Origin: a bacterium
GTDB taxonomy: Bacteria > UBA8248
Length of the DNA stretch: 64,000 nt
Assembly (NCBI GenBank): GCA_965213685.1
Contig: CBDBZY010000045.1
Location: 1 to 64,000, forward strand
Reading direction: 5' to 3'
In this document: piece after piece, positions 1,609 to 55,527 of the stretch
How positions within the stretch are numbered: position 1 is the first letter of the stretch
Layout of the letters: every line of letters starts with the position of its first letter
Program-made: the position numbers and the translations under genes
Notes under the pieces: model-generated
The model's input: the letters and a program-made list of their open reading frames with translations, nothing else
What the model was told of the DNA's origin: nothing
The model's database searches: none

Positions 1609-2540
1609 TGGAGATCATCCGGCCCGGCGCGTCATTCGACATCATTGGCAAGATCAGGATATTCGTCGGCGTCTCGAGTGCGGTTGTCGCCATATCCCTC
1701 CTCCTTCTTCTCTTCAAAGGGATCAACTACGGCATCGATTTCACCGGAGGCACCCTGGTGCAGGCGCAGTTCAAGACGGCCAGGCCGATTGGAGAGATAC
1801 GCAAGGCCGTCTCCGCACTCTCCCTGGGCGATACCGTCATTCAGAATTTTGGCTCGGACAGGGAATTCCTGATTCGCGTGGAGAGGAGTTCGGGCGACAT
1901 CAAGGGCGTTGAATCCGTGGTAAAAGACGCGCTCGTGAAGCAGTTCGGCAAAGGGGCGTTTCTGATGCGGCGCACCGAGATGGTGGGGCCGAAAGTCGGT
2001 GCGGACTTGCGCCAGAAGGCGCTCAGCAGCATGGTGTTCGCCCTCATCGGCATCTTGGCGTACGTCAGTTTTCGCTTCCAGTTTCGCCAGGCGGTCGCGT
2101 CCGTCGTGGCCCTGCTGCACGACGTCGTCATCACCCTTGGCGTTTTTTCCTTATCCGGCAAGGAGTTCTCCCTCCCGATAGTCGCGGCACTTCTCACGAT
2201 CGTCGGCTATTCGCTGAATGACACCATCGTCGTGTTCGACCGCATTCGGGAGAATACGCGCGCCTCGAGGCGCACCGAGCTTCCCGCGCTCGTCAATCGC
2301 TCCATCAATCAGACCCTCTCTCGCACGCTGCTCACCTCCGGGACGACCTTCGTCGCTGTCATGGCGTTCCTGTTTCTGGGGGGCGACGTGATTTCCGACG
2401 TGGCGTTCGCTCTGGCGGTCGGCATCGTGGCGGGCACGTACTCCTCCATATACGTGGCCAGCCCGATTCTTCTGGCGTGGCCGGAAGCGGCGCGCGGAGG
2501 CTCCAGAAGACGGAAGAAAGGCTCCGCAGCCAAGGCCTGA
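1608..2540 (+). CDS. secF: Protein translocase subunit SecF
   Basis: GIDFTGGT, VGPKVG, HDVVIT, GYSLNDTIVVFDRIRE; coupled to secD. Confidence 0.97.
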   Translation: MEIIRPGASFDIIGKIRIFVGVSSAVVAISLLLLLFKGINYGIDFTGGTLVQAQFKTARPIGEIRKAVSALSLGDTVIQNFGSDREFLIRVERSSGDIKGVESVVKDALVKQFGKGAFLMRRTEMVGPKVGADLRQKALSSMVFALIGILAYVSFRFQFRQAVASVVALLHDVVITLGVFSLSGKEFSLPIVAALLTIVGYSLNDTIVVFDRIRENTRASRRTELPALVNRSINQTLSRTLLTSGTTFVAVMAFLFLGGDVISDVAFALAVGIVAGTYSSIYVASPILLAWPEAARGGSRRRKKGSAAKA

Positions 2541-2702
2541 AGCCTCGCCCGGGCGGGCGCGTTCGGCTCCGTGGACGGAAAAAAGGCCCCCGCCCCCCGG
2601 TGAGAGGCGGGTGCGCGGTGCTCCGGCGGGGTCATGTCACCCCCGCGCGGGAATCCCGCCCGCTTCCGAGAAGAAAATTCTCCATCGTTTCAGGGGCGGC
2701 GG

Positions 2703-2815
2703 CGGACAGTCCTCACCGAGAGGTTTTTGGGGTGGGCCTCTGGTGGAGGGAGCGGAAGCCCTCCGTGGCGACCACGCCTCGGACAGTCCTCATCGAGAAG
2801 TTGTTGGGGTGGGCC
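2703..2815. repeat. 36-bp direct repeat, two copies (2703-2738, 2780-2815), 41-bp spacer
   Basis: cggacagtcctcaYcgagaRgttKttggggtgggcc, 3 mismatches; second copy overlaps the argG stop. Confidence 0.8.
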
Positions 2816-4028
2816 GGGCTTCCTTTCGTTGCGCGCGTATCCGCAGCCGCAGAGCGTTCAGGCGAATGAACCCTTCCGCGTCCTTTTGGGAATACACCGC
2901 ATCCTCTTCAAAAGTGGCGAGCTCCGGACGATACAGCGTCCTGCTCTCCGGCGCTTTTCTCCCCACGACGCAGCAAGCCCCTTTGTAGAGCTTCACCCTG
3001 GCGACGCCGCAGACCGATTGCGACGCCAGGTCTATGGCGGATTGCAGGAATTCGCGCTCCGGCGCAAACCAGAAGCCGTTGTAGACGAGCTGCGCGTATT
3101 TGGGGATGAGGGAGTCGCGCAATTGCATGACCTCCCGATCCATCGTGAGGGATTCCACGGCGCGCCGCGCCGCGTGCAGAACCGTGCCCGCTGGCGTTTC
3201 ATACACCCCTCTGCTCTTCATGCCCACAAAGCGGTTTTCCACCAAATCCACCCGGCCCACGCCGTGGGCGCCCGCCAGGGCGTTGAGTCGCTCCATCAAG
3301 GCGACCGGCGGGAGGCTCGCCCCGTTCAGCGCCACGGGGTCTCCCCCGTCGAATTCGACCTCCACGTATTCGGGCGCCTCGGGCGCTTTCTCTGGCGATG
3401 CGCTGAGGACATACATATCCTCCGGCGGCTCCGCCCACGGGTCCTCCAGGATTCCCCCCTCGAAGCTGATGTGGAGAAGGTTTCTGTCCATGGAGTATGG
3501 CTTTTCCGCCGTGACGGGTATCGGGATGCCGTGCCGTTCGGCGTAGGCGATGAGCTGGGAGCGCCCCCCGAAGTCCCAGTCGCGCCAGGGCGCGATGATG
3601 GCGACCTCCGGGTCGATGGAGGCATACGCCAACTCAAAGCGGACCTGGTCGTTTCCCTTGCCCGTCGCGCCGTGGGCGACGGCGTCGGCTCCCGTCTTGT
3701 GGAGAACGTCCATATGGCCTTTGGCGATGAGGGGCCTGGCGATGGACGTCCCCAGCAAATACGCACCCTCATACACGGCACCAGCGCGGAGCATGGGGAA
3801 GATGTAATCGCGCGCGAACTCCTCGCGCAGATCCAGAATATGGCAAGACTCGGCGCCCGTGGCCAACGCCTTCTCCTCCAGACCATCGAGCTCGCCGGCG
3901 CCCTGCCCGACATCCGCCGCGTAGGCCACGACAGGGCAATCATACCTCTCTTGAATCCACTGGAGCATGACGGAGGTGTCCAGCCCGCCGGAGTAGGCGA
4001 GGACCACCTTATTTGGCCTGGGCGTCAT
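2790..4028 (-). CDS. argG: Argininosuccinate synthase
   Basis: [37 protein letters not shown]. Confidence 0.98.
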
Positions 4029-4956
4029 CTCTTCCTCCCGCGAGGACTTGAAGGAGAACCTTCTGGGCGTGGAGCCGATTCCCGGCTTGCGTGAAAACGA
4101 CGCTCCGGGGGCCGTCGATAACGTCTTTCGTCACCTCTTCTCCCCTGTGAGCGGGCAGGCAGTGCATGAAGATGGCCTCTTTGCGCGTATAGCGAAACAA
4201 TTTTTCATTCACCTGATAGGGTGCCAGTATTCTCTGGCGGCGTTCGTTCTCGTCTTCCTGTCCCATCGAAGTCCATACGTCCGCATAAACGGCGTCGGCC
4301 CCCGCGCACGCTTCTTCCACGCTCTCCGTGATCTCGATTTTTGCGTTGGATTTTTGCGCGAGCCTCCGGGCGCGCTCCAGGATGCGGGAATCCGGCCAAT
4401 AGTCTTCGGGACACGCTGCGCTGATGCGGGCTCCGATGAGCGCGCCCAGGATCAGCAGGGAGTGCAGCACGTTGTTGCCGTCGCCCAGGTAGGTGAGTTT
4501 CAGGTTCTCCAGCGTGCCGTAGTGCTCCCGCAGCGTGAGGAAATCGGCAAGCGCCTGGCATGGGTGGTGCATGTCCGTCAGGCCGTTGATGACGGGGACG
4601 CTGGCGTTGGAGGCGATTTCCTCCACGCGCGCGTGTTCGTATGTTCTGACGATGATGCCATCCACATACTCGCTCAGCACCCGGGCGCTGTCCGCCGGCG
4701 ATTCTCCCCGGGCGATTTGCGTGTCCCCCGTCGACAGGAAAATCGCGTTGGCGCCCAGTTGAGAGAGGCCCGCCTCGAAGGAAACCCTCGTCCTGGTGGA
4801 GTGCTTCTCGAAAATGAGCGCGAAATTCTTTCCCGCCAGGGCGGGGCGAAGTTTCCCCCGGGCCGCTTCCTTTTTCCCGACGAGGGCTTCTTCGATGAGA
4901 TGGCGCGTCTCGTCCGCCGTCAGTTCATCGCCGATGAGATAGTCAATCTTGTTCAC
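4009..4956 (-). CDS. argF: Ornithine carbamoyltransferase
   Basis: [29 protein letters not shown]; GTG start. Confidence 0.97.
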
Positions 4957-6147
4957 TTGGCCAAATCCGCGAGGGCTTCATCCAGAAAACCCATCAACTT
5001 GTCGATCATCTCTTTTTCCACGATCAGGGGCGGGATGAGGCGAATGACCTTCTGGACGGCCACGTTGAGCAAAAAAACCGGCTTCCAGCCCCTTGGCGAC
5101 GATGGGCGTGGCGTCCGCGTCCACCTCGCAGCCGAGGATCAGGCCTTTGCCCCGGATATCCCGGATGATGGCGTGGCGCGCGGCCAAATCCTCGAGGGCG
5201 GCGGTGGCGTATGCGCCCATCTGTTCTACGTGCTCGAGGAACCCGGGCGCCGTGATGGCGTCCACCGCTGCGCATCCCGCTGCGGTGGCCAGGGGGTTGC
5301 CCCCGAACGTCGCCGCGTGGTCTCCGGGCTCGAACGCCATGGCCTTGTCCGAGGCGACCAGCGCGCCGATGGCGGCCCCTCCCGCCAGTGCCTTGGCCAG
5401 ACTCATGGCGTCCGGCTCCACGCCCTCGTGTTCGTGTGCCCAGAGCCTTCCCGTCCTCCCCAGCCCGACCTGCACTTCGTCAAAGAGCAGGAGCAGGTCG
5501 TTCGCGTCGCATATCTCGCGCAGCCCCCGCAGATAGCCCTCGGGCGGCACGTTGACCCCCCCCTCGCCCTGTATGGGCTCGACCAGGATGGCGCAGGTCT
5601 TCTCCGTGACCGCACCGGCCGCGGACTCCAGGTCGCCAAAGGGCAAATACCGGAAGCCGGGTAGCAGCGGCTTGAACGCCCCGTGAAATTTCGTTTGGCC
5701 CGTCGCGGTGAGGGAAGCCATGGTGCGGCCGTGAAAACTCATGTCGAAACTGAGTATTTCATGACGGCCGTCCCCGTATTTTTGGTGGGAGTATTTCCTG
5801 GCGAGTTTCAGGGCCGCTTCGACGGCCTCCGTTCCGCTGTTGCAGAAAAACGCCTTCTCGCCGAAAGAGAGCCGGTTGAGTCTTTTCGCCAACTCGATTT
5901 GGGGCGCGATGTGGTAAAGGTTCGAGACGTGCATCAGTTTTCCGGCCTGCTCCCGTATGGCGGCCACGACGTCCGGGTGGCAGTGTCCGAGGTTGCATAC
6001 CGCGAGGCCGGACACGAAATCCAGATACTCCTTCCCGTCCGCATCCCAGACGCGGCAGCCCTCGCCGCGGGTCAGAGCGATGGGATAGCGCCCGTATGTG
6101 GGGGCCACGTGTCGTTCGGCATCCGCGATCAGTGTGGAGTTGTCCAT
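4953..6147 (-). CDS. argD: Acetylornithine aminotransferase, apparent +1 frameshift at the A7 run 5071-5077
   Basis: FHGRT, EPIQGEGG, DEVQVGLGRTG, TFGGNPLA; removing one base restores C-terminal LLNVAVQKVIRLIPPL..LAK* ending at 4953 on the argF start. Confidence 0.92.
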
Positions 6148-6170
6148 GTTTTTCCTCTGGAGTCGGAGGA

Positions 6171-7046
6171 CTAGGTGAGGAGTTGCGTGCCCACGCCCTC
6201 TTTCGTGAATATCTCCAGCAAAACGGCATGGGGAACCCTGCCGTCCACGATGTGGGTTTTCGTGACGCCGGATGAGAGCGCAGCCAGGCAGGCGTCCACC
6301 TTGGGAATCATTCCGCCGCTGAGCACGCCGGCGTCTCTCAGCTTTTGGGCCTCCCCGCGCTGAAGGGTGCTGATGAGTTTCCGATCTGCTCCCAGAACGC
6401 CGGGCACGTCCGTGAGGAGGATGAATTTTTCCGCGCGAAGCGCCCCTGCGATGGCACCCGCCGCCGAGTCGGCGTTGATGTTGTAGACGTTGCCGTCTTC
6501 TCCCACGCCCAGGGGAGCGATGACGGGGATGAACCCGCCCGCGGTGAGGTGATGGATGATCGCGGGCTGTATGGCCAGGACTTCGCCGACGCGCCCCAGG
6601 TCATATTCCGTATCCCGTCCGTCTGCGCTTTTTCTGCTCATCGTCAGCTTGCGCGCCCTGGTGAGGCCGGCGTCCGAGCCGGAAAGACCCACGGCGTTTC
6701 CCCCGTGCTGGTTGATGAGCCGGACGATGCCCTTGTTCGTGGAGCCGGAGAGCACCATCTCCACGATGCCGACGGTCTCCTCGTCCGTTACCCGGAGGCC
6801 TTCGATGAACTCGCTGGTTTTGCCGATTTTCTGGAGGGTCTCCCCAATCTGCGGGCCTCCCCCGTGGACGACGACCACGTTGATCCCCACGTACTTGAGG
6901 AGCACGATATCCTGGGCGAACGGGGCGTGGAGCTCCGGTTGCACCTGGGCGGCGCCGCCGTATTTGATGACAATAGTCTTTCCCGCGAACTCCTGGATGT
7001 AGGGCAGCGCCTCTACCAGCGTCGCCGCCCTGTCTTTCGCTTCCAT
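6171..7046 (-). CDS. argB: Acetylglutamate kinase
   Basis: IKYGG, VHGGGPQI, GLRVTD, YNINAD, GGMIPK. Confidence 0.97.
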   Translation of the reverse strand: MEAKDRAATLVEALPYIQEFAGKTIVIKYGGAAQVQPELHAPFAQDIVLLKYVGINVVVVHGGGPQIGETLQKIGKTSEFIEGLRVTDEETVGIVEMVLSGSTNKGIVRLINQHGGNAVGLSGSDAGLTRARKLTMSRKSADGRDTEYDLGRVGEVLAIQPAIIHHLTAGGFIPVIAPLGVGEDGNVYNINADSAAGAIAGALRAEKFILLTDVPGVLGADRKLISTLQRGEAQKLRDAGVLSGGMIPKVDACLAALSSGVTKTHIVDGRVPHAVLLEIFTKEGVGTQLLT

Positions 7047-7148
7047 CTGTGCGCCTTCCGAAACAGTGGGCATCATCCGGGTTTTTCGTCATAAGGCGAG
7101 AAATATACACCCCCCGGCGGAGCGAGGCCAACGGGGGAGGGGCAGGAT

Positions 7149-8510
7149 TTACAGAATGTAGCGGCTGAGGTCGAGGTCTGCGGCGATGTCGGCGAGGCGG
7201 TCGCGCACATAGGCCGCGTTGATGTCCATGCTGTGGCCCGACAGCTCCGGTGCATCGAAAGAGATGTCCTCCAGCAGCCGCTCCATGATGGTGTGGAGCC
7301 TTCTGGCGCCGATGTTCTCGGTCTGCTCGTTTATCCGGCAGGCGAAGTCCGCCACCGCTTCCACGGCGTCCTTCTCGAAGCGGATGGTGACCCCCTCCGT
7401 CGCGAGAAGTGCCGGGTATTGCCGCACCAGCGCGTTTTCCGGCTCCTGCAGTATGCGGATGAAATCATCGCGGTCCAGAGGGTTCAGCTCCACGCGAATG
7501 GGAAATCGTCCCTGCAGCTCGGGCAGAAGGTCGGACGGCTTGGCGATGTGGAACGCTCCGGCCGCGATGAACAGGATGTGGTCCGTTTTTACGGGGCCAT
7601 GCTTGGTTTGAACGGTGGAGCCCTCCACGATCGGAAGAAGGTCGCGCTGGACGCCCTCGCGCGAGACGTCGGGGCCGCTTCCCCCGTTGCTTTGAGAGGC
7701 GACCTTGTCGATCTCATCGAGAAAGACGATGCCGGATTGTTCCGTCCGCTCGATGGCCTCGGCGTTGAGGCTGTCCGCGTCGATGAGCTTGTCCGCCTCC
7801 TCCTCGGCCAGAAACGCGAAGGCCTCCGGCACTTTCATTCGCCTGGTCCTGGAGCCCTGGGGCATGAAATTTCCCATGATTTCCTTCATGTTGAGGCCGA
7901 TTTGCTCCAGGTCGCTCCCGCCCATGAAGTGAATCTCGGGCCCCTTGTCCGCCACTTCTATTTCCACTTCCCTCTCGTCGAGCTTTCCCTCGATCAGCAG
8001 GGCGCGAAACTTCTCCCGCGTCCGGTGGTAGCTTTCCTCGCCGAGCGGGTCCTTCGACTGTCCCCGGTCGTCCATGGCGCCGAACCCCGGGGGCTGCGGC
8101 AAAAGCAGGTCCAGAAGGCGCTCCTCGGCCAACTCCTGTCCCTTGCTCCTGTTGACGCCGCGCTGTTCTTCCTGAACCATGTTGCGGGCCAGTTCGACGA
8201 GGTCCCGAATCATGCTCTCCACATCCCGCCCGACATAGCCCACCTCGGTGAATTTGCTGGCTTCGACCTTGATGAACGGGCTTTTCGCGAGCTTGGCGAG
8301 GCGCCTGGCGATCTCGGTTTTCCCCACGCCGGTGGGGCCTATCATGATGATGTTCTTGGGCGCGACGTCCTCCGCCATCTCCGGGGGCAGTTGCTGTCTG
8401 CGCCAGCGGTTTCTCAGCGCGATAGCCACCGCTCTTTTGGCGTCTTGCTGGCCGATGACGTAGCGGTCGAGTTCCTCGACGATTCGCGCGGGCGTCAGGT
8501 TTTCCATCAC
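7149..8510 (-). CDS. hslU: ATP-dependent protease ATPase subunit HslU
   Basis: [41 protein letters not shown]-terminus. Confidence 0.98.
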
Positions 8511-52417: not shown

Positions 52418-53349
52418 GCATTTTGCTGGACTCGGCGACGCGGGTGCTCGTGCAGGGGGTGACGGGGGCGGAAGCGCGGAGGCTACTGCCCACCATGACC
52501 TCCTATGGCACCCGCGTGGTGGCGGGCGTGTCTCCCGGCAAGGGGGGAGAGGCGGTGGACGGCGTGCCGGTGTATGACGCGGTGGAGGACGCGGTGCGCG
52601 CCCACGAGGCGGACCTCTCCGTGCTGTTCGTGCCGGCGCGCTTCGTGCGCGACGCCGCCCTGGAGGCGATAGAGGCGGGCGTGCCCACCATCCACATTCT
52701 GGCGGAGGGCGTGCCCCACCATGACGCTTGCGCACTGCTGGCGCGCGCGGCGGAGAGGGGCACCTTCGTCATCGGCCCCAACAGCCAGGGCATGGTGAGT
52801 CCGGGGAAGGCGAAGGTCGGCGGCACGGGGGGCGAGGTGCCGGACCTCATGTTCCGCCCGGGACCTGTGGGCGTGGTGAGCAGAAGCGGGGGGATGGGCG
52901 CCGAGATTTGCCTGTTTCTGACGCGCGCGGGCATCGGCCAGAGCACCTATGTGGCCCTGGGCGGCGACCTGCTCATCGGCGCCTCTTTTGTCGAAATGCT
53001 CGCCTTGTTCGAGAACGACCCCGAGACCCGGGCCGTTGTCCTGTTCGGAGAACCCGGCACGGACAGGGAGGAGGCGGCGGCCCGCTTCATCGCCTCGGGC
53101 GGGTTCACCAAGCCTGCCGTGGCCATGATACCCGGCGAGTTTTGGGAGACGTCCCCCACGCCGGCGAGCGTGAGCCATACCGGCGCGCTCATCGAGCGGG
53201 GCCGGGGCGCGCCCTCCCGGAAGAAGAAGATGCTGCGGGAGGCCGGCGTCTCGGTGGCCGAGAAATTCTCCGACATCGTGCCCCTGGTCGAACGGGCGCT
53301 GCGGGAAGCGCCGGGCAAAGCGGCCGAACCGGACCCTGCGCCGATTTGA
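52414..53349 (+). CDS. Succinyl-CoA/citryl-CoA synthetase alpha-like subunit
   Basis: VQGVTG, GVSPGKGG, IGPNSQG, VSRSGG, phospho-His motif SHTGA. Confidence 0.88.
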   Translation: MSILLDSATRVLVQGVTGAEARRLLPTMTSYGTRVVAGVSPGKGGEAVDGVPVYDAVEDAVRAHEADLSVLFVPARFVRDAALEAIEAGVPTIHILAEGVPHHDACALLARAAERGTFVIGPNSQGMVSPGKAKVGGTGGEVPDLMFRPGPVGVVSRSGGMGAEICLFLTRAGIGQSTYVALGGDLLIGASFVEMLALFENDPETRAVVLFGEPGTDREEAAARFIASGGFTKPAVAMIPGEFWETSPTPASVSHTGALIERGRGAPSRKKKMLREAGVSVAEKFSDIVPLVERALREAPGKAAEPDPAPI

Positions 53350-53529
53350 CCCCTTGTCGGACGCAAGCGCCGCCGCCGGAAGGGAGGGGATTTATTTGCG
53401 CGCGCGCTCCCGCCGACCTCGCCGGCCCTCCCCGGGCGCGCCTCCCCACGCCGTTTCCGCCTCCCTTGGGGGGATGGCGCGCGGGGCGCATCGCCCGCCC
53501 TGCAGGGCCAGTCCCCGGAATTTTTGGGA

Positions 53530-53558
53530 TTGCCCCGGATATCCCGAAACGATATAAT
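53530..53558 (+). promoter_or_regulatory. Sigma70 promoter of peptide cassette 1
   Basis: TTGCCC-17 nt-TATAAT. Confidence 0.65.
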
Positions 53559-53650
53559 CGGGTTGGTTGCGGGGACGTTGCGTCCGGTTCTTGGCGCGCC
53601 GCACAACGAGGGAATTCACATCTCGTCGTAGCAAACCGGAGGGTGCGAGA

Positions 53651-53818
53651 ATGAATGAATCGGCTGAGAAAGACAAAGTGGTTGCGAAGGAGACCGAAGA
53701 GAAGGATCGGGAGTTGAGCGACAAGGAGGTGGATGAGGCCAAGGTGTCGGGAGGAACGGACAGCTCGATAGCGGATACGGGAAGAGCCCAGGGCCAGAGG
53801 TGGGGTCACAGGATATAG
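53651..53818 (+). CDS. Double-glycine-leader peptide 1 (putative RiPP/bacteriocin precursor, 55 aa)
   Basis: MNESAEKDKVVAKETEEKDRELSDKEVDEAKVSGG|TDSSIADTGRAQGQRWGHRI; GGAGG RBS. Confidence 0.78.
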   Translation: MNESAEKDKVVAKETEEKDRELSDKEVDEAKVSGGTDSSIADTGRAQGQRWGHRI

Positions 53819-54021
53819 CCCGGGGGGAGTGCATCGCCCCGGGAGGGCAGGGCGGACGTTGGACGCACGGGTCGGCGTCTTCATATCATGGTGCCCCCTC
53901 CGTTCGCGTCCAGATGATCGGGCTGGTTGTCGCGGTGATGTGTGCCTGGTTCGTAGGCGCACCGCACACAGGCGGGGAAATGTGAATCCACAGTCGTTGC
54001 AATAAACCGGAGGATGCGAGG

Positions 54022-54201
54022 ATGAATGAATCGGCTGCGAAGGAGACCGAAGGGAAGGATCGGGAGTTGAGCGACGAGGAGATGGAGGAGGCCCAGGTGT
54101 CGGGAGGAACGGGCGACTCGGCGTCGGAGGGAAAACTCCCGGATGAGGATGCGAACAAATTCAATCAGCAGCACTACCTCAACAGGGTCCCTCGGCCGTA
54201 G
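54022..54201 (+). CDS. Double-glycine-leader peptide 2 (59 aa; absent from the ORF track)
   Basis: MNESAAKETEGKDRELSDEEMEEAQVSGG|TGDSASEGKLPDEDANKFNQQHYLNRVPRP; GGAGG RBS. Confidence 0.78.
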   Translation: MNESAAKETEGKDRELSDEEMEEAQVSGGTGDSASEGKLPDEDANKFNQQHYLNRVPRP

Positions 54202-54404
54202 CCCTGGGGGGGGGGGGAGCACCGCTCCTCGGGACGGGCCCTGGCGGGTATTGTGAGGGATCGCCCTGTAGCCCTCCCGAAACGCGCGATATAGCGATAC
54301 GGAGAGGCTGGTTGCGGGGACGCGCGGAGTCCGCTTCGTGTTGTGCCGCGCACAGCACGGGGAAATGAATCCGGAGTCGTCGCGGCAAACCGGAGGATGC
54401 GGGA

Positions 54405-54587
54405 ATGAATGAATCGGCTACGAAGGAGACCGGGGGGAAGGATCGGGAGTTGAGCGACGAGGAGATGGATGAGGCCCAGGTGTCGGGAGGAACGGGCAAC
54501 TCGGCGTCGGAGGGAAAACTCTCGGCGGAGGAGGCGGAAAGACTCCGGAACCATGGCTGGCGCAACGAGGTTTGGGGGACGGAATGA
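54405..54587 (+). CDS. Double-glycine-leader peptide 3 (60 aa)
   Basis: MNESATKETGGKDRELSDEEMDEAQVSGG|TGNSASEGKLSAEEAERLRNHGWRNEVWGTE; GGAGG RBS. Confidence 0.78.
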   Translation: MNESATKETGGKDRELSDEEMDEAQVSGGTGNSASEGKLSAEEAERLRNHGWRNEVWGTE

Positions 54588-54771
54588 CGTTGCGGTAAAA
54601 TTCGCCCCGCGTATCTTCTATCTATCTCCGCGCGTCAAGTTTCGCTCGCATCCGGTGTCCCTCCCGCGCGACCCGGTTTCCCCTTCTTTCTCCTCTCCGG
54701 CCATCGCGCCCGCGTGGGTTTGTTTCACAATCGCCCCGGCGGGGATGCCGCTCCTCAGTTCAGCATCTTCA

Positions 54772-55527
54772 TCAGATCATCGTCGCCCCGCCGTTCACGT
54801 CGAGGGTGACGCCGTTGATGTAGGCCGCTTCCTTCGAGCAAAGAAAGACGACCGCCTCGGCAATCTCCCGGGGTTCCGAAAGCCTGCCCGCCGGAGTGGA
54901 TTGTTGGATGTAGGCGATGCGCTCGGGCGTTCGGATGCCAATCGTTCTCGGCGTTCGCACGTTGGCCGGCGCCACAGCGTTGACGGTGATCCCGTGCGGC
55001 CCCAGTTCGCGCGCCGCCTGGCGGGTGAGGCCCAGCACCCCTGCCTTGGCGGCCGTGTAGTGCGGCGGGTTCGGGTTCACGCCGCTGCGCGCGGCCATGC
55101 TCGAGAGGGTGACGACGCGCCCGTACCGCGCCGCCACCATCAGGGGAGCGACGGCCTTGAGGAGGTAGAACATCGACTTCAGGTTCGAGTCCACCACGCC
55201 GTCCCAGGCTTCGACCGGGCAGTCGAGAAGGCTCACGTAGCGGGGGAATCCGCCCGCGCTGTGCACGAGGGCGTCCACCCGCCCCGCCTGCGCATGCGCT
55301 TCCCGCACGGCGGCGCTGGTCGCCTCCCAGTCGGTGAGGTCGACGACGGCGCAGCGGGCGCGGCTGCCGCTCTCGTTGATGGATTGCGCGACCGCCGCCG
55401 CACCCTCCCCGTTCACGTCCATCACGGTGACCGCCGCTCCCTCCCGCGCGAGAATTCTGGCGGTGGCCTCCCCGATGCCCGTCGCAGCGCCCGTGACGAT
55501 GGCGCTTTGCCCCTCAAAGCCGCTCAT
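54772..55527 (-). CDS. SDR-family oxidoreductase (FabG-like)
   Basis: TGAATGIG, YTAAK, VNAVAP, INGVTLDVNGG. Confidence 0.93.
   Translation of the reverse strand: MSGFEGQSAIVTGAATGIGEATARILAREGAAVTVMDVNGEGAAAVAQSINESGSRARCAVVDLTDWEATSAAVREAHAQAGRVDALVHSAGGFPRYVSLLDCPVEAWDGVVDSNLKSMFYLLKAVAPLMVAARYGRVVTLSSMAARSGVNPNPPHYTAAKAGVLGLTRQAARELGPHGITVNAVAPANVRTPRTIGIRTPERIAYIQQSTPAGRLSEPREIAEAVVFLCSKEAAYINGVTLDVNGGATMI

What the first reader, a model, noticed from the sequence alone, without database searches (positions are those of the whole stretch)
53530..54587. Orphan array of three double-glycine-leader peptides with conserved leader and variable core (candidate new RiPP/bacteriocin family)
Seen: three tandem ~375-bp units, each with a GGAGG RBS and a 55-60 aa ORF (the middle one is missing from the ORF track). 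They share an acidic leader ending ELSD(K/E)E(V/M)(D/E)EA(K/Q)VSGG. The cores diverge toward the C-terminus: TDSSIADTGRAQGQRWGHRI, TGDSASEGKLPDEDANKFNQQHYLNRVPRP, TGNSASEGKLSAEEAERLRNHGWRNEVWGTE. Known: ELSDEELEAVSGG-type motifs are C39-peptidase (PCAT) cleavage signals in Nif11/NHLP/proteusin and class II bacteriocin precursors, and a fixed leader with a diversifying core is typical of RiPP libraries. Inference: the cores have no Cys, so they are not lanthipeptides. Their tails are rich in W/H/Y/N/R, with aromatic-x-x triplets (WGH, WRN, YLN, FNQ) reminiscent of radical-SAM cyclophane substrates. No PCAT or dedicated maturase is adjacent, so processing would have to be in trans.
Basis: partly seen in the sequence, partly recalled or inferred. 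Interest (0 to 1): 0.82.

Follow-up and report, generated by a model that had tools for sequence, protein, structure and literature searches.

The report
Three orphan double-glycine leader peptide genes
Three tandem, species-specific small genes encode peptides with a secretion-type "double-glycine" leader that most likely feed a peptide-cleaving exporter encoded elsewhere in the same genome: an ordinary kind of system, with an unusual two-residue shift in the leader.

Summary
There are three tandem units (spacing 371 and 383 bp), each with a GGAGG ribosome-binding site 8 nt before an ATG. The ORFs are 55, 59 and 60 aa, with a conserved acidic leader ending VSGG and diverging Cys-free cores. 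They look translated: 5 of 6 strain differences inside the ORFs are synonymous, and one strain has 4/483 changes inside the ORFs against 21/548 outside.

The family is an orphan. I found no relative in 5.8 billion proteins, 1.84 billion cluster representatives, 60 related genomes or two contig collections. The array sits in a variable gap between two genes that are syntenic across the genus.

Contig C3 carries the genome's only C39 transporter, within a complete NHLP-type export cassette, and two more GG-leader peptides lie beside it. A six-frame motif scan finds only these five in the high-GC organism.

- No RiPP maturase was found, so the rSAM/cyclophane idea has no support.
- The leaders carry two extra residues before GG, which puts Glu at -7 and Asp at -12. 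This spacing was seen in 0 of 24 GG peptides near related transporters.

Verdict: a new variant of a known kind, of modest interest.

The parts
53350..53529 (.). Spacer between the stop of the CoA-ligase-like gene (ends 53349) and unit 1. It is part of the 1.42-kb species-specific insert.
   Evidence: Synteny comparison with 6 relatives. The flanking gene matches Pfam CoA_binding and Succ_CoA_lig.
53530..53558 (+). Promoter-like site of unit 1: TTGCCC, 17 nt, TATAAT.
   Evidence: 10 of 12 matches. The region holds 2 such sites, against a mean of 0.2 in shuffles. This is a consensus match only; no transcript data.
53561..53650 (+). Conserved 5' untranslated region of unit 1, with GGAGG at 53638-53642. 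Its 5' end (GGYUGGUU) can pair with codons 3-5 (AAUCGGCU).
   Evidence: Alignments. The closing helix is predicted in all 3 single folds, but overall stability is no better than shuffles (z = 1.26, -0.27, -2.29).
53651..53818 (+). Peptide gene 1, 55 aa. Leader is residues 1-35 (53651-53755), ending VSGG. Core is 20 aa (53756-53815): TDSSIADTGRAQGQRWGHRI.
   Evidence: Strain differences: 2 synonymous and 1 D37G.
53819..53843 (+). G+C-rich hairpin just after the stop of gene 1 (CCCGGGG...CCCCGGG), with no U tract.
   Evidence: z = -2.09; 4 of 200 shuffles fold as well. Terminator function is inferred only.
53860..53889 (+). Promoter-like site before unit 2: TGGACG, 18 nt, TATCAT. It is not at the position homologous to the unit 1 promoter.
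   Evidence: 9 of 12; alignment.
53920..54021 (+). Conserved 5' untranslated region of unit 2, with GGAGG at 54009-54013.
54022..54201 (+). Peptide gene 2, 59 aa. Leader is residues 1-29 (54022-54108). Core is 30 aa (54109-54198): TGDSASEGKLPDEDANKFNQQHYLNRVPRP.
   Evidence: One synonymous strain difference.
54305..54404 (+). Conserved 5' untranslated region of unit 3, with GGAGG at 54392-54396. The scan found no promoter-like site.
54405..54587 (+). Peptide gene 3, 60 aa. Leader is residues 1-29 (54405-54491). Core is 31 aa (54492-54584): TGNSASEGKLSAEEAERLRNHGWRNEVWGTE.
   Evidence: Two synonymous strain differences. DNA just downstream is strongly diverged in the same strain.
54588..54771 (.). 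Spacer up to the stop of the convergent SDR gene (54772-55527, - strand). It is highly variable between strains.
   Evidence: run X5 piece 54468-54800 has 19 other letters and 25 gaps, and all but 2 of the letters lie after 54587. The SDR matches Pfam adh_short_C2.

Best explanation
The three units are real, translated small genes. They arose by tandem duplication inside a variable intergenic site of one species, probably a Paracoccaceae-like alphaproteobacterium that is one of at least two organisms in this assembly.

Each gene encodes a precursor of 55-60 aa. The precursor has a short hydrophilic, acidic leader ending in Val-Ser-Gly-Gly, followed by a Cys-free hydrophilic core of 20-31 aa. 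The leader looks like the last ~18 residues of the NHLP-type leader encoded beside the genome's only C39 transporter.

The most likely mechanism is as follows. The leaders are recognised in trans by the LahT150-like protease domain of that NHLP-type exporter on contig C3 (HlyD-like adaptor, peptidase/permease/ATPase, second permease/ATPase). They are cut after Gly-Gly, and the cores are exported, unmodified or modified by an enzyme of no recognised RiPP family.

Shown: the genes, their conservation pattern, the selection signature, the exporter, and its own neighbouring GG peptides.

Inferred: recognition, cleavage, export, and any biological activity (a signal or competition peptide).
For: (1) Coding. 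Of 6 strain differences inside the ORFs, 5 are synonymous third-position changes in the proposed frame and 1 is D37G. The binomial P is 0.002-0.017 for a neutral synonymous share of 0.215-0.33. In run X5 there are 4 changes in 483 covered ORF positions against 21 in 548 covered positions outside, Fisher P = 0.0018. GC3 exceeds GC1, which exceeds GC2, in all three ORFs. Gaps between the paralogs inside the ORFs are multiples of three (18 and 3 nt), while gaps in the upstream region are not.

(2) Exporter. There is one Peptidase_C39 hit in the whole assembly, on a 66% GC contig. The cassette scores TIGR03794 244 bits (cut-off 156) and TIGR03796 1021 bits (cut-off 853), with TIGR03797 also present. 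Its protease domain matches LahT150 (6MPZ) at E = 6e-51. The catalytic Q, C, H and D are invariant in 15 of 15 aligned homologues.

(3) Cognate peptides. Divergent from the cassette lie a 62-aa peptide (leader ...SVSDEELGEVSGG) and a 116-aa NHLP-like peptide (...KDGELSEAELDSVAGG), both with good ribosome-binding sites. They align with the window leaders at K-D-x-E-L-S-x-x-E-[LM] and V-[SA]-G-G.

(4) Specificity. The leader regex hits only these 5 ORFs in the high-GC contigs.

(5) Precedent. The NHLP/Nif11 export cassette serves many scattered paralogous precursors with hypervariable cores (PMC2887384, passages read). Short-leader GG peptides lie near related transporters in other phyla: 10 of 24 regex hits across 80 loci.

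(6) Complex prediction of the C39 domain with peptide 1 gave weak support: score 0.45, best of 3 controls 0.02. The mark was reached by 58 of 80 solved complexes and 2 of 110 mismatched pairs. At a score of 0.60 or under, however, it was reached by only 7 of those 80 and by both mismatches. The runs agree in at least 75% of contacts, and the partner pLDDT is at least 51. A similar complex is already solved, so the pass may come from memory.
Against: - In the canonical register the window leaders have Glu at -7 and Asp at -12, in 3 of 3. [quoted passage not shown]
- The hydrophobic triad exists (Leu, Met/Val, Ala) with the right internal spacing, but it sits 2 residues further from Gly-Gly. This spacing occurred in 0 of 24 GG-leader ORFs found in 80 loci around related transporters.
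- The second transporter gene (TIGR03797) reads in three frames in this assembly, with breaks at a T8 run and a G5 run. It is one 1013-aa frame in two close relatives. The cassette may be damaged, or the assembly may have homopolymer errors.
- Between paralogs the leader shows no excess of synonymous change: pN/pS is about 0.7 or higher, on 4-7 changes.
- The indels reported for the strain contigs that cover the ORFs were not all listed (table 4 was cut), so frame conservation in the strains is shown for substitutions only.
- The cores are hydrophilic, with net charge about +1, -1 and -2 (my count). That is unlike pore-forming class II bacteriocins.
- There are no expression data.
Confidence: 0.5

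Rival explanations
1. The genes are translated, but the peptides are no longer (or never were) transporter substrates. The two-residue shift has uncoupled the recognition helix from the Gly-Gly site, so they stay in the cell as small acidic proteins with another role. They might also bind the C39 domain without being cut and so modulate export of the two cognate peptides.
For: Glu at -7 and Asp at -12 in 3 of 3 leaders, against the LahT150 requirements. The +2 spacing occurs in 0 of 24 GG ORFs near related transporters. Selection acts on the whole ORF, core included. Peptide 3 has a weak, sub-threshold SHOCT-like match in its core: 16.1 bits against a cut-off of 27. The cores are hydrophilic and acidic.
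Against: The Gly-Gly and Val -4 are invariant in all three paralogs, and the leader is the best conserved part of the unit at 89-90% DNA identity. The leader resembles those of the two peptides beside the transporter. A conserved leader with a diverging core (pN 0.51 against pS 0.24 in core codons 41-59) is what is seen in exported precursor families (PMC2887384).
Confidence: 0.25
2. This is the first reader's reading: a new RiPP family whose W/H/Y/N/R-rich cores are cross-linked or otherwise modified by a maturase encoded elsewhere (radical SAM, P450 or an unknown family), before cleavage by the transporter.
For: Trp-containing, Cys-free cores recur in GG peptides of this genome and genus. 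Examples are RWGH and VWGTE in the window, FWGTG and DRWND or DRWHN beside the transporter, and AQMWQEFANAWNSLNQNS in relatives. In relatives, NHLP peptides sit next to a 342-365-aa protein of no Pfam family that could be a maturase. The assembly is 94% complete, so a gene could be missing.
Against: The single SPASM protein is far below every peptide-maturase cut-off and lies next to an MFS transporter and a glyoxalase-like ORF, with no peptide gene. No YcaO or PqqD/RRE was found. A LanC-like gene was not found either, but the control was blank. The single P450 lies in a low-GC island with no peptide gene seen. The 365-aa neighbour protein of relatives has no match in this genome. No residue or motif is conserved across the three cores beyond the first few positions. 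The flanking genes are syntenic in relatives that lack the array, so they are not dedicated partners.
Confidence: 0.1
3. The units are not protein-coding. They are tandem small RNAs, for example GGA-rich protein-sponge RNAs of the CsrB/RsmX type, or chance ORFs in duplicated DNA.
For: The strand is purine- and GGA-rich (GC skew +0.2 to +0.3). About 90 nt upstream of each ATG is conserved as well. Between paralogs the leader changes are mostly non-synonymous. No protein relatives exist anywhere.
Against: No CsrA gene is found in the assembly, although the control rang in 3 of 14 genomes. No Rfam family comes near its threshold; the best is 19.8 bits against 45. The folds of the upstream regions are not more stable than shuffles in 2 of 3 units. 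Strain differences are 5 of 6 synonymous in the proposed frame and mostly non-synonymous in the other five frames. Each ORF has GGAGG 8 nt before its ATG. In-ORF gaps are multiples of three.
Confidence: 0.05

Closest known systems
NHLP / Nif11-type precursor peptides served by the three-gene export cassette TIGR03794 / TIGR03796 / TIGR03797 (Haft et al. 2010, PMC2887384; passages read)
   Same: The same cassette is present in this genome. Precursors occur in several paralogous copies, some far from the transporter. The leader ends in L-S-x-x-E-L/M ... V-x-G-G, and the core after Gly-Gly is hypervariable.
   Different: The window leaders are 29-35 aa rather than the long nitrile-hydratase-like or Nif11-like domain. 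They match neither TIGR03793 nor TIGR03798. They carry two extra residues between the recognition motif and Gly-Gly. No thiazole/oxazole or lanthionine machinery is present, and the cores have no Cys.
Substrates of the double-glycine protease LahT150 (Bobeica et al. 2019, PMC6363468; passages read; structure 6MPZ)
   Same: The genome's C39 domain is a close relative of LahT150 (E = 6e-51). The leaders share Gly-Gly, Val at -4, and an acidic helical segment with Leu and Met.
   Different: [quoted passage not shown] Here -7 is Glu and -12 is Asp, and the hydrophobic residues sit at -6, -9 and -14.
Short-leader GG peptides next to NHLP-type PCATs in other phyla (loci L106, L112, L127, L138, L156 and L165 from genome contigs)
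   Same: Hydrophilic leaders of about 20-42 aa that start M-S/T-E/K..., end in L-S/T-x-x-E/D-L-x-x-V/A-x-G-G, and often occur as tandem paralogs.
   Different: Those lie within 8 kb of their transporter and have the canonical spacing. Several have Cys-rich cores. There is no sequence relationship to the window peptides beyond the motif.
Prochlorosin-type libraries: many scattered precursors, one conserved leader, one processing system. This is recalled knowledge; for PMC10783134 I saw only the search listing and the start of its abstract.
   Same: A fixed leader with diversifying cores, and processing in trans.
   Different: Prochlorosins have Nif11 leaders, Cys/Ser/Thr-rich cores and a ProcM lanthionine synthetase. 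None of these is present here.
Unmodified class II bacteriocins, colicin V and competence pheromones exported by C39 ABC transporters. This is recalled knowledge; the ComA consensus Leu-12 / Glu-8 / Leu-7 is quoted in PMC6363468.
   Same: A double-glycine leader, no modification enzymes, and small tandem genes.
   Different: The cores here are hydrophilic and near-neutral to acidic. There is no adjacent immunity gene or two-component sensor, and the leader spacing differs.

Membership tests
Double-glycine leader substrates of C39 peptidase-domain ABC transporters (PCAT/AMS) | Gly-Gly (or Gly-Ala / Gly-Ser) at -2/-1, at the end of an N-terminal leader | tested here: met
   VSGG is invariant in 3 of 3 peptides.
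Double-glycine leader substrates of C39 peptidase-domain ABC transporters (PCAT/AMS) | Hydrophobic residue at -4 | tested here: met
   Val at -4 in 3 of 3. The criterion comes from PMC6363468.
Double-glycine leader substrates of C39 peptidase-domain ABC transporters (PCAT/AMS) | Hydrophobic residues at -7 and -12 (Leu-12 x3 Glu-8 Leu-7) | tested here: not met
   -7 is Glu and -12 is Asp in 3 of 3. Leu, Met/Val and Ala sit at -14, -9 and -6, which is the canonical triad shifted by two residues. The two peptides beside the transporter do meet it. The +2 spacing was seen in 0 of 24 GG ORFs in 80 related loci.
Double-glycine leader substrates of C39 peptidase-domain ABC transporters (PCAT/AMS) | A C39 transporter with an intact catalytic set in the same genome | tested here: met
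   One hit, on contig C3: 126 bits for PF03412 and 1021 bits for TIGR03796. Q, C, H and D are conserved. Caveat: the partner gene TIGR03797 is split over three frames.
Double-glycine leader substrates of C39 peptidase-domain ABC transporters (PCAT/AMS) | Cleavage after Gly-Gly, and export | not testable with these tools
   Only a structure-prediction score is available: weak support, 0.45 against a best control of 0.02.
NHLP leader family (TIGR03793) | Match to the family model above its cut-off, with a long nitrile-hydratase-like leader | tested here: not met
   No NCBIfam family matches at E up to 10 for any of the 3 peptides, and the leaders are 29-35 aa. The 116-aa peptide on C3 matches weakly, at 30.5 bits against a cut-off of 50.9.
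Nif11-derived leader family (TIGR03798) | Match to the family model | tested here: not met
   no match for the peptides; no match anywhere in the assembly.
Radical-SAM cyclophane (three-residue cyclophane) RiPP precursors | A cognate radical SAM/SPASM peptide maturase in the genome, normally adjacent | tested here: not met
   There is one SPASM hit in the assembly, on contig C31. Its best family is TIGR04317 at 118 bits against a cut-off of 380, and every peptide-maturase model scores far below its cut-off. No peptide gene lies beside it. Radical SAM enzymes without a SPASM domain were not surveyed.
Radical-SAM cyclophane (three-residue cyclophane) RiPP precursors | Repeated aromatic-x-x motifs conserved in the core | tested here: inconclusive
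   Aromatic residues are present, but no motif is conserved across the three cores. The motif definition is recalled, not taken from a call.
CsrA/RsmA-sequestering small RNAs | A CsrA-family protein in the genome, and GGA motifs displayed in hairpin loops | tested here: not met
   No PF02599 match in the assembly, although the control rang in 3 of 14 genomes. No Rfam match comes near its threshold.

The most novel reading that the evidence does not exclude
The two-residue shift between the recognition helix and Gly-Gly is functional. One possibility is a previously undescribed binding register for a LahT-like C39 domain. The other is that the three peptides are uncleavable, or slowly cleaved, leader mimics that occupy the protease domain and tune export of the two cognate peptides. 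In that case they would be a built-in regulator of a peptide exporter, kept under purifying selection in a single species.
Probability: 0.1. Interest if true: 0.6.

Novelty: new variant of a known kind. Interest (0 to 1): 0.38.

Why it matters
If the peptides are cut and exported, they add an orphan, lineage-specific set of secreted peptides to an alphaproteobacterium that lives in a mixed culture or community. They would also show that a LahT-like protease tolerates a leader with the Gly-Gly site moved two residues from the recognition helix. That matters for people who use such proteases as general leader-removal tools and for motif-based genome mining, because a strict LSxxELxxVxGG pattern would miss these genes. 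If they are not cut, they are a natural example of leader decay, or of leader mimicry. Either way the system belongs to a well-described kind, and no new chemistry is indicated.

Tried and rejected
**Family searches.** NCBIfam found nothing for the three peptides. Pfam found only sub-threshold matches for peptide 3 (SHOCT-like, 16.1 bits against 27; zf-HC2, 11.7 against 22.2).

**Rfam.** Over 52500-55500 at E up to 5 there were three chance-level matches, the best being FinP at 19.8 bits against 45.

**Homologue searches.**
- The word-indexed search of 5.8 billion proteins found only the window's own peptides.
- The exhaustive HMMER search of 1.84 billion representatives found its own peptides plus one 3670-aa repetitive protein, which matched 29 short stretches of the acidic part.
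- A profile search of 60 related genomes gave matches at E up to 1 in 20 of 60. All scored 18.5 bits or less and lay mostly inside long frames, so none is convincing.
- Scans of genome contigs and metagenome contigs produced 187 and 586 pattern matches, and none was confirmed.

**The 62-aa contig-C3 peptide.** It also has no convincing relative in 22 genus genomes: 3 of 22 had matches at E 0.03-0.09.

**CsrA-sponge idea.** Rejected.

**Nitrile-hydratase-like hits on contig C44.** These are a full-length 255-aa enzyme-like protein, not a precursor.

**Upstream RNA structure.** A closing helix is predicted in all three units, but there is no stability signal and too few sequences for covariation: 3 of 32 pairs changed on both sides.

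**Expression.** No RNA holder is listed among the public runs, so nothing can be said about expression. Runs X6 and X8 cover only 4 of 30 bins each, and I draw nothing from them.

**Antisense ORFs.** The 92-128-aa antisense ORFs over the units are rejected. They run through the upstream regions, where the units differ by gaps that are not multiples of three. The strain changes are also mostly non-synonymous in those frames.

Full report
**What is there.** The window at 53,530-54,587 holds three head-to-tail units. Each has a GGAGG 8 nt before an ATG and a short ORF on the + strand:
- ORF1: 53651-53818, 55 aa.
- ORF2: 54022-54201, 59 aa.
- ORF3: 54405-54587, 60 aa.

The repeat finder gives three-copy families over the RBS/start (84-86% identity) and over the leader-coding part (89-90%), spaced 353-383 bp. 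Units 2 and 3 are 88% alike over 180 nt. The protein alignment shows M-N-E-S-A, K-E-T, K-D-R-E-L-S-D, E, E-A, V-S-G-G-T and S invariant. Unit 1 has six extra codons in the leader.

Conservation also covers about 90 nt upstream of each ATG. Unit 1 is preceded by a good sigma-70-like site, TTGCCC-17-TATAAT, at 53530-53558. Unit 2 has a weaker site at a non-homologous position, and unit 3 has none by the scan. G+C-rich hairpins without U tracts follow ORF1 and ORF2. Whether there are three transcripts or one is therefore open.

**Are they genes?** Contigs of public runs that hold this stretch give two strain variants. Inside the ORFs they differ from the window at six positions. Five of these are third-position synonymous changes in the proposed frame, and one is D37G in ORF1. 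In the other five frames most of the six would change the residue. A binomial test gives P = 0.002-0.017, depending on the neutral synonymous share assumed.

In run X5 the ORFs carry 4 changes in 483 covered positions, against 21 in 548 covered positions outside them (Fisher P = 0.0018). The spacer after ORF3 is also full of indels. GC3 is higher than GC1, which is higher than GC2, in all three ORFs, although GC3 (0.69-0.77) is below that of the neighbouring genes (0.88). Gaps between the paralogs are multiples of three inside the ORFs and not upstream.

There are two caveats. The indel table was cut, so I cannot place the few gaps in the contigs that cover the ORFs. Between paralogs the leader shows no synonymous excess, and the distal core has pN 0.51 against pS 0.24, which means either diversification or relaxed constraint.

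**Context.** The assembly is a mixture of roughly 5 Mb of 42-53% GC contigs and roughly 3 Mb of ~65% GC contigs. The window's contig (64% GC) belongs to the latter. The genus assignment fits the high-GC part, because the downstream SDR gene is 79-83% identical in 8 of 8 same-genus genomes.

The array lies between a CoA-binding/succinyl-CoA-ligase-like gene and a convergent SDR gene. In 6 of 6 relatives examined these two genes are also adjacent and convergent. The distance between them is about 12, 60, 100, 240, 780 and 3,180 bp, against 1,422 bp here. The two long gaps hold unrelated low-GC DNA. So the array is a species-specific insert at a variable site, and the flanking genes are not dedicated partners.

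**Relatives.** I found none beyond the species. The searches were:
- Pfam and NCBIfam.
- 5.8 billion proteins.
- 1.84 billion representatives read exhaustively.
- 60 related genomes.
- Genome and metagenome contig collections.

**The exporter.** The assembly has exactly one Peptidase_C39 match, on the 66% GC contig C3. It belongs to a complete NHLP-type export cassette:
- HlyD-like adaptor: TIGR03794, 244 bits against a cut-off of 156.
- Peptidase/permease/ATPase: TIGR03796, 1021 bits against 853.
- Second permease/ATPase: TIGR03797.

The last gene reads in three frames, with breaks at a T8 run and a G5 run, whereas two close relatives have one 1013-aa frame. This is either a real defect or a homopolymer error. 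The protease domain is a close relative of LahT150 (6MPZ, E = 6e-51), and Q, C, H and D are invariant in 15 of 15 aligned homologues.

Two small genes with good ribosome-binding sites run divergently from the cassette. One is a 62-aa peptide with leader ...SVSDEELGEVSGG. The other is a 116-aa NHLP-like peptide ending ...KDGELSEAELDSVAGG, followed by VSWERFWGTGTSTANDRWNDPYA. The window leaders align with both, most closely with the end of the NHLP-like leader (K-D-x-E-L-S-x-x-E-L/M ... V-S/A-G-G). By profile comparison the similarity is only motif-level (hhalign probability 11%).

A six-frame regex for this leader type finds 7 ORFs in the whole 7.97 Mb. Five are in the high-GC organism: the three of the window and the two beside the transporter. 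This is the arrangement described for the NHLP/Nif11 export cassette, with scattered paralogous precursors and hypervariable cores (PMC2887384, passages read). TIGR03796-like transporters occur in 15 of 22 same-genus genomes at E up to 1e-100. NHLP-like peptides with Trp-containing, Cys-free cores occur in 12 of 22.

**The discrepancy.** All three window leaders have two residues more than the canonical motif between the E-M pair and V-S-G-G. Counted from the cleavage site, -4 is Val, but -7 is Glu and -12 is Asp. The Leu, Met/Val and Ala residues sit at -14, -9 and -6.

[quoted passage not shown] Variants with charged residues at -4 or -7, and most Leu-12 mutants, were not processed (PMC6363468, passages). 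The two contig-C3 peptides have the canonical spacing.

Among 80 loci around the closest transporter homologues from many phyla, I found 24 GG-leader ORFs with canonical spacing in 16 loci. Ten of them have short leaders like these, and none has the +2 spacing. The closest of those homologues is a Paracoccaceae MAG with a C39 domain 75% identical.

A complex prediction of the C39 domain with peptide 1 gave weak support: score 0.45 against a best control of 0.02. At scores of 0.60 or under such passes are, by the tool's own calibration, more often wrong than right unless the guess was already likely. A similar complex is also already solved, so the pass may come from memory.

**Maturases.**
- The one SPASM protein (contig C31) scores far below every family cut-off (best 118 against 380) and has no peptide neighbour.
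- No YcaO or PqqD was found.
- No LanC-like gene was found, but the control was blank.
- The one P450 lies about 3 kb from the SPASM gene in a low-GC island that looks like small-molecule metabolism.
- A 342-365-aa protein without a Pfam family accompanies NHLP peptides in relatives, but it has no match in this genome.

The cyclophane/RiPP reading therefore has no support here, although it is not excluded.

**Non-coding reading.** The strand is GGA-rich, but there is no CsrA gene, no Rfam match and no fold stability signal, and the substitution pattern is that of a coding frame.

**Verdict.** These are real, species-specific, tandemly duplicated genes for short double-glycine-leader peptides. 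They are most likely handled in trans by the genome's single NHLP-type, LahT-like transporter (about 0.5). The main rival is that the shifted leader has uncoupled them from it (about 0.25). This is a known kind of system. The new elements are the orphan family and the shifted leader register.

Noticed in passing
whole assembly G000 (71 contigs): The assembly mixes at least two organisms. About 5 Mb of contigs have 42-53% GC (for example C64, 1.6 Mb at 44%), and about 3 Mb have ~65% GC. The quality figures (94% complete, 3.7% contaminated) do not reveal this.
   Followed up: partly
G000 contig C3 57365-60306 (L037 7366-10304): The TIGR03797 transporter gene of the export cassette reads in three frames, with the breaks at a T8 run and a G5 run. 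The orthologue is one 1013-aa frame in G022 and G008. This is either a real pseudogene or a homopolymer error.
   Followed up: partly
relatives' loci L034 (G008) 4380-7620 and L035 (G002) 4590-5430: The same intergenic site between the CoA-ligase-like gene and the SDR gene holds unrelated inserts in other species. G008 has 3.2 kb at 44% GC, with several ORFs and a duplicated 3' fragment of the CoA-ligase-like gene. G002 has 0.8 kb at 49% GC, encoding a 185-aa protein with a hydrophobic N-terminus and a Lys/Arg/Glu-rich tail. The site looks like an insertion hot spot.
   Followed up: partly
L081 (G002) 1411-1761 and 1957-3054; L066 (G002) 2129-2401 and 1086-2114: In relatives, NHLP-like peptides sit next to a 342-365-aa protein with no Pfam family. 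One such peptide (core AQMWQEFANAWNSLNQNS) is conserved in several species. Another has a core of only three residues (IYY) and lies directly beside the HlyD/PCAT cassette. The unknown protein is a candidate new peptide-modifying enzyme. It has no match in G000.
   Followed up: partly
G000 contig C31 about 348000-357000: A lower-GC island (55-60%) holds the assembly's only P450 (350077-351465, - strand) and its only SPASM radical SAM gene (354535-355590, + strand). An MFS transporter and other ORFs lie alongside. The function is unknown, and no peptide gene was seen.
   Followed up: partly
G000 contig C44 about 123300-124070 (L038 997-1764): A 255-aa nitrile-hydratase-alpha-like protein with a CTLCSC motif and a His-rich N-terminus explains the weak TIGR03793 hits. 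It is an enzyme-sized protein, not a precursor.
   Followed up: no
G000 contig C18 59426-59689 and 584712-584879: Two copies of a Cys-rich ORF containing LSQSELRRVHGG lie in a 45% GC contig of the other organism. It is probably a repeated element rather than a leader peptide.
   Followed up: no
window 54207-54219: A run of 12 G follows directly after the stop of gene 2. Contigs of two other runs break or diverge exactly there (loose ends at 54214).
   Followed up: no
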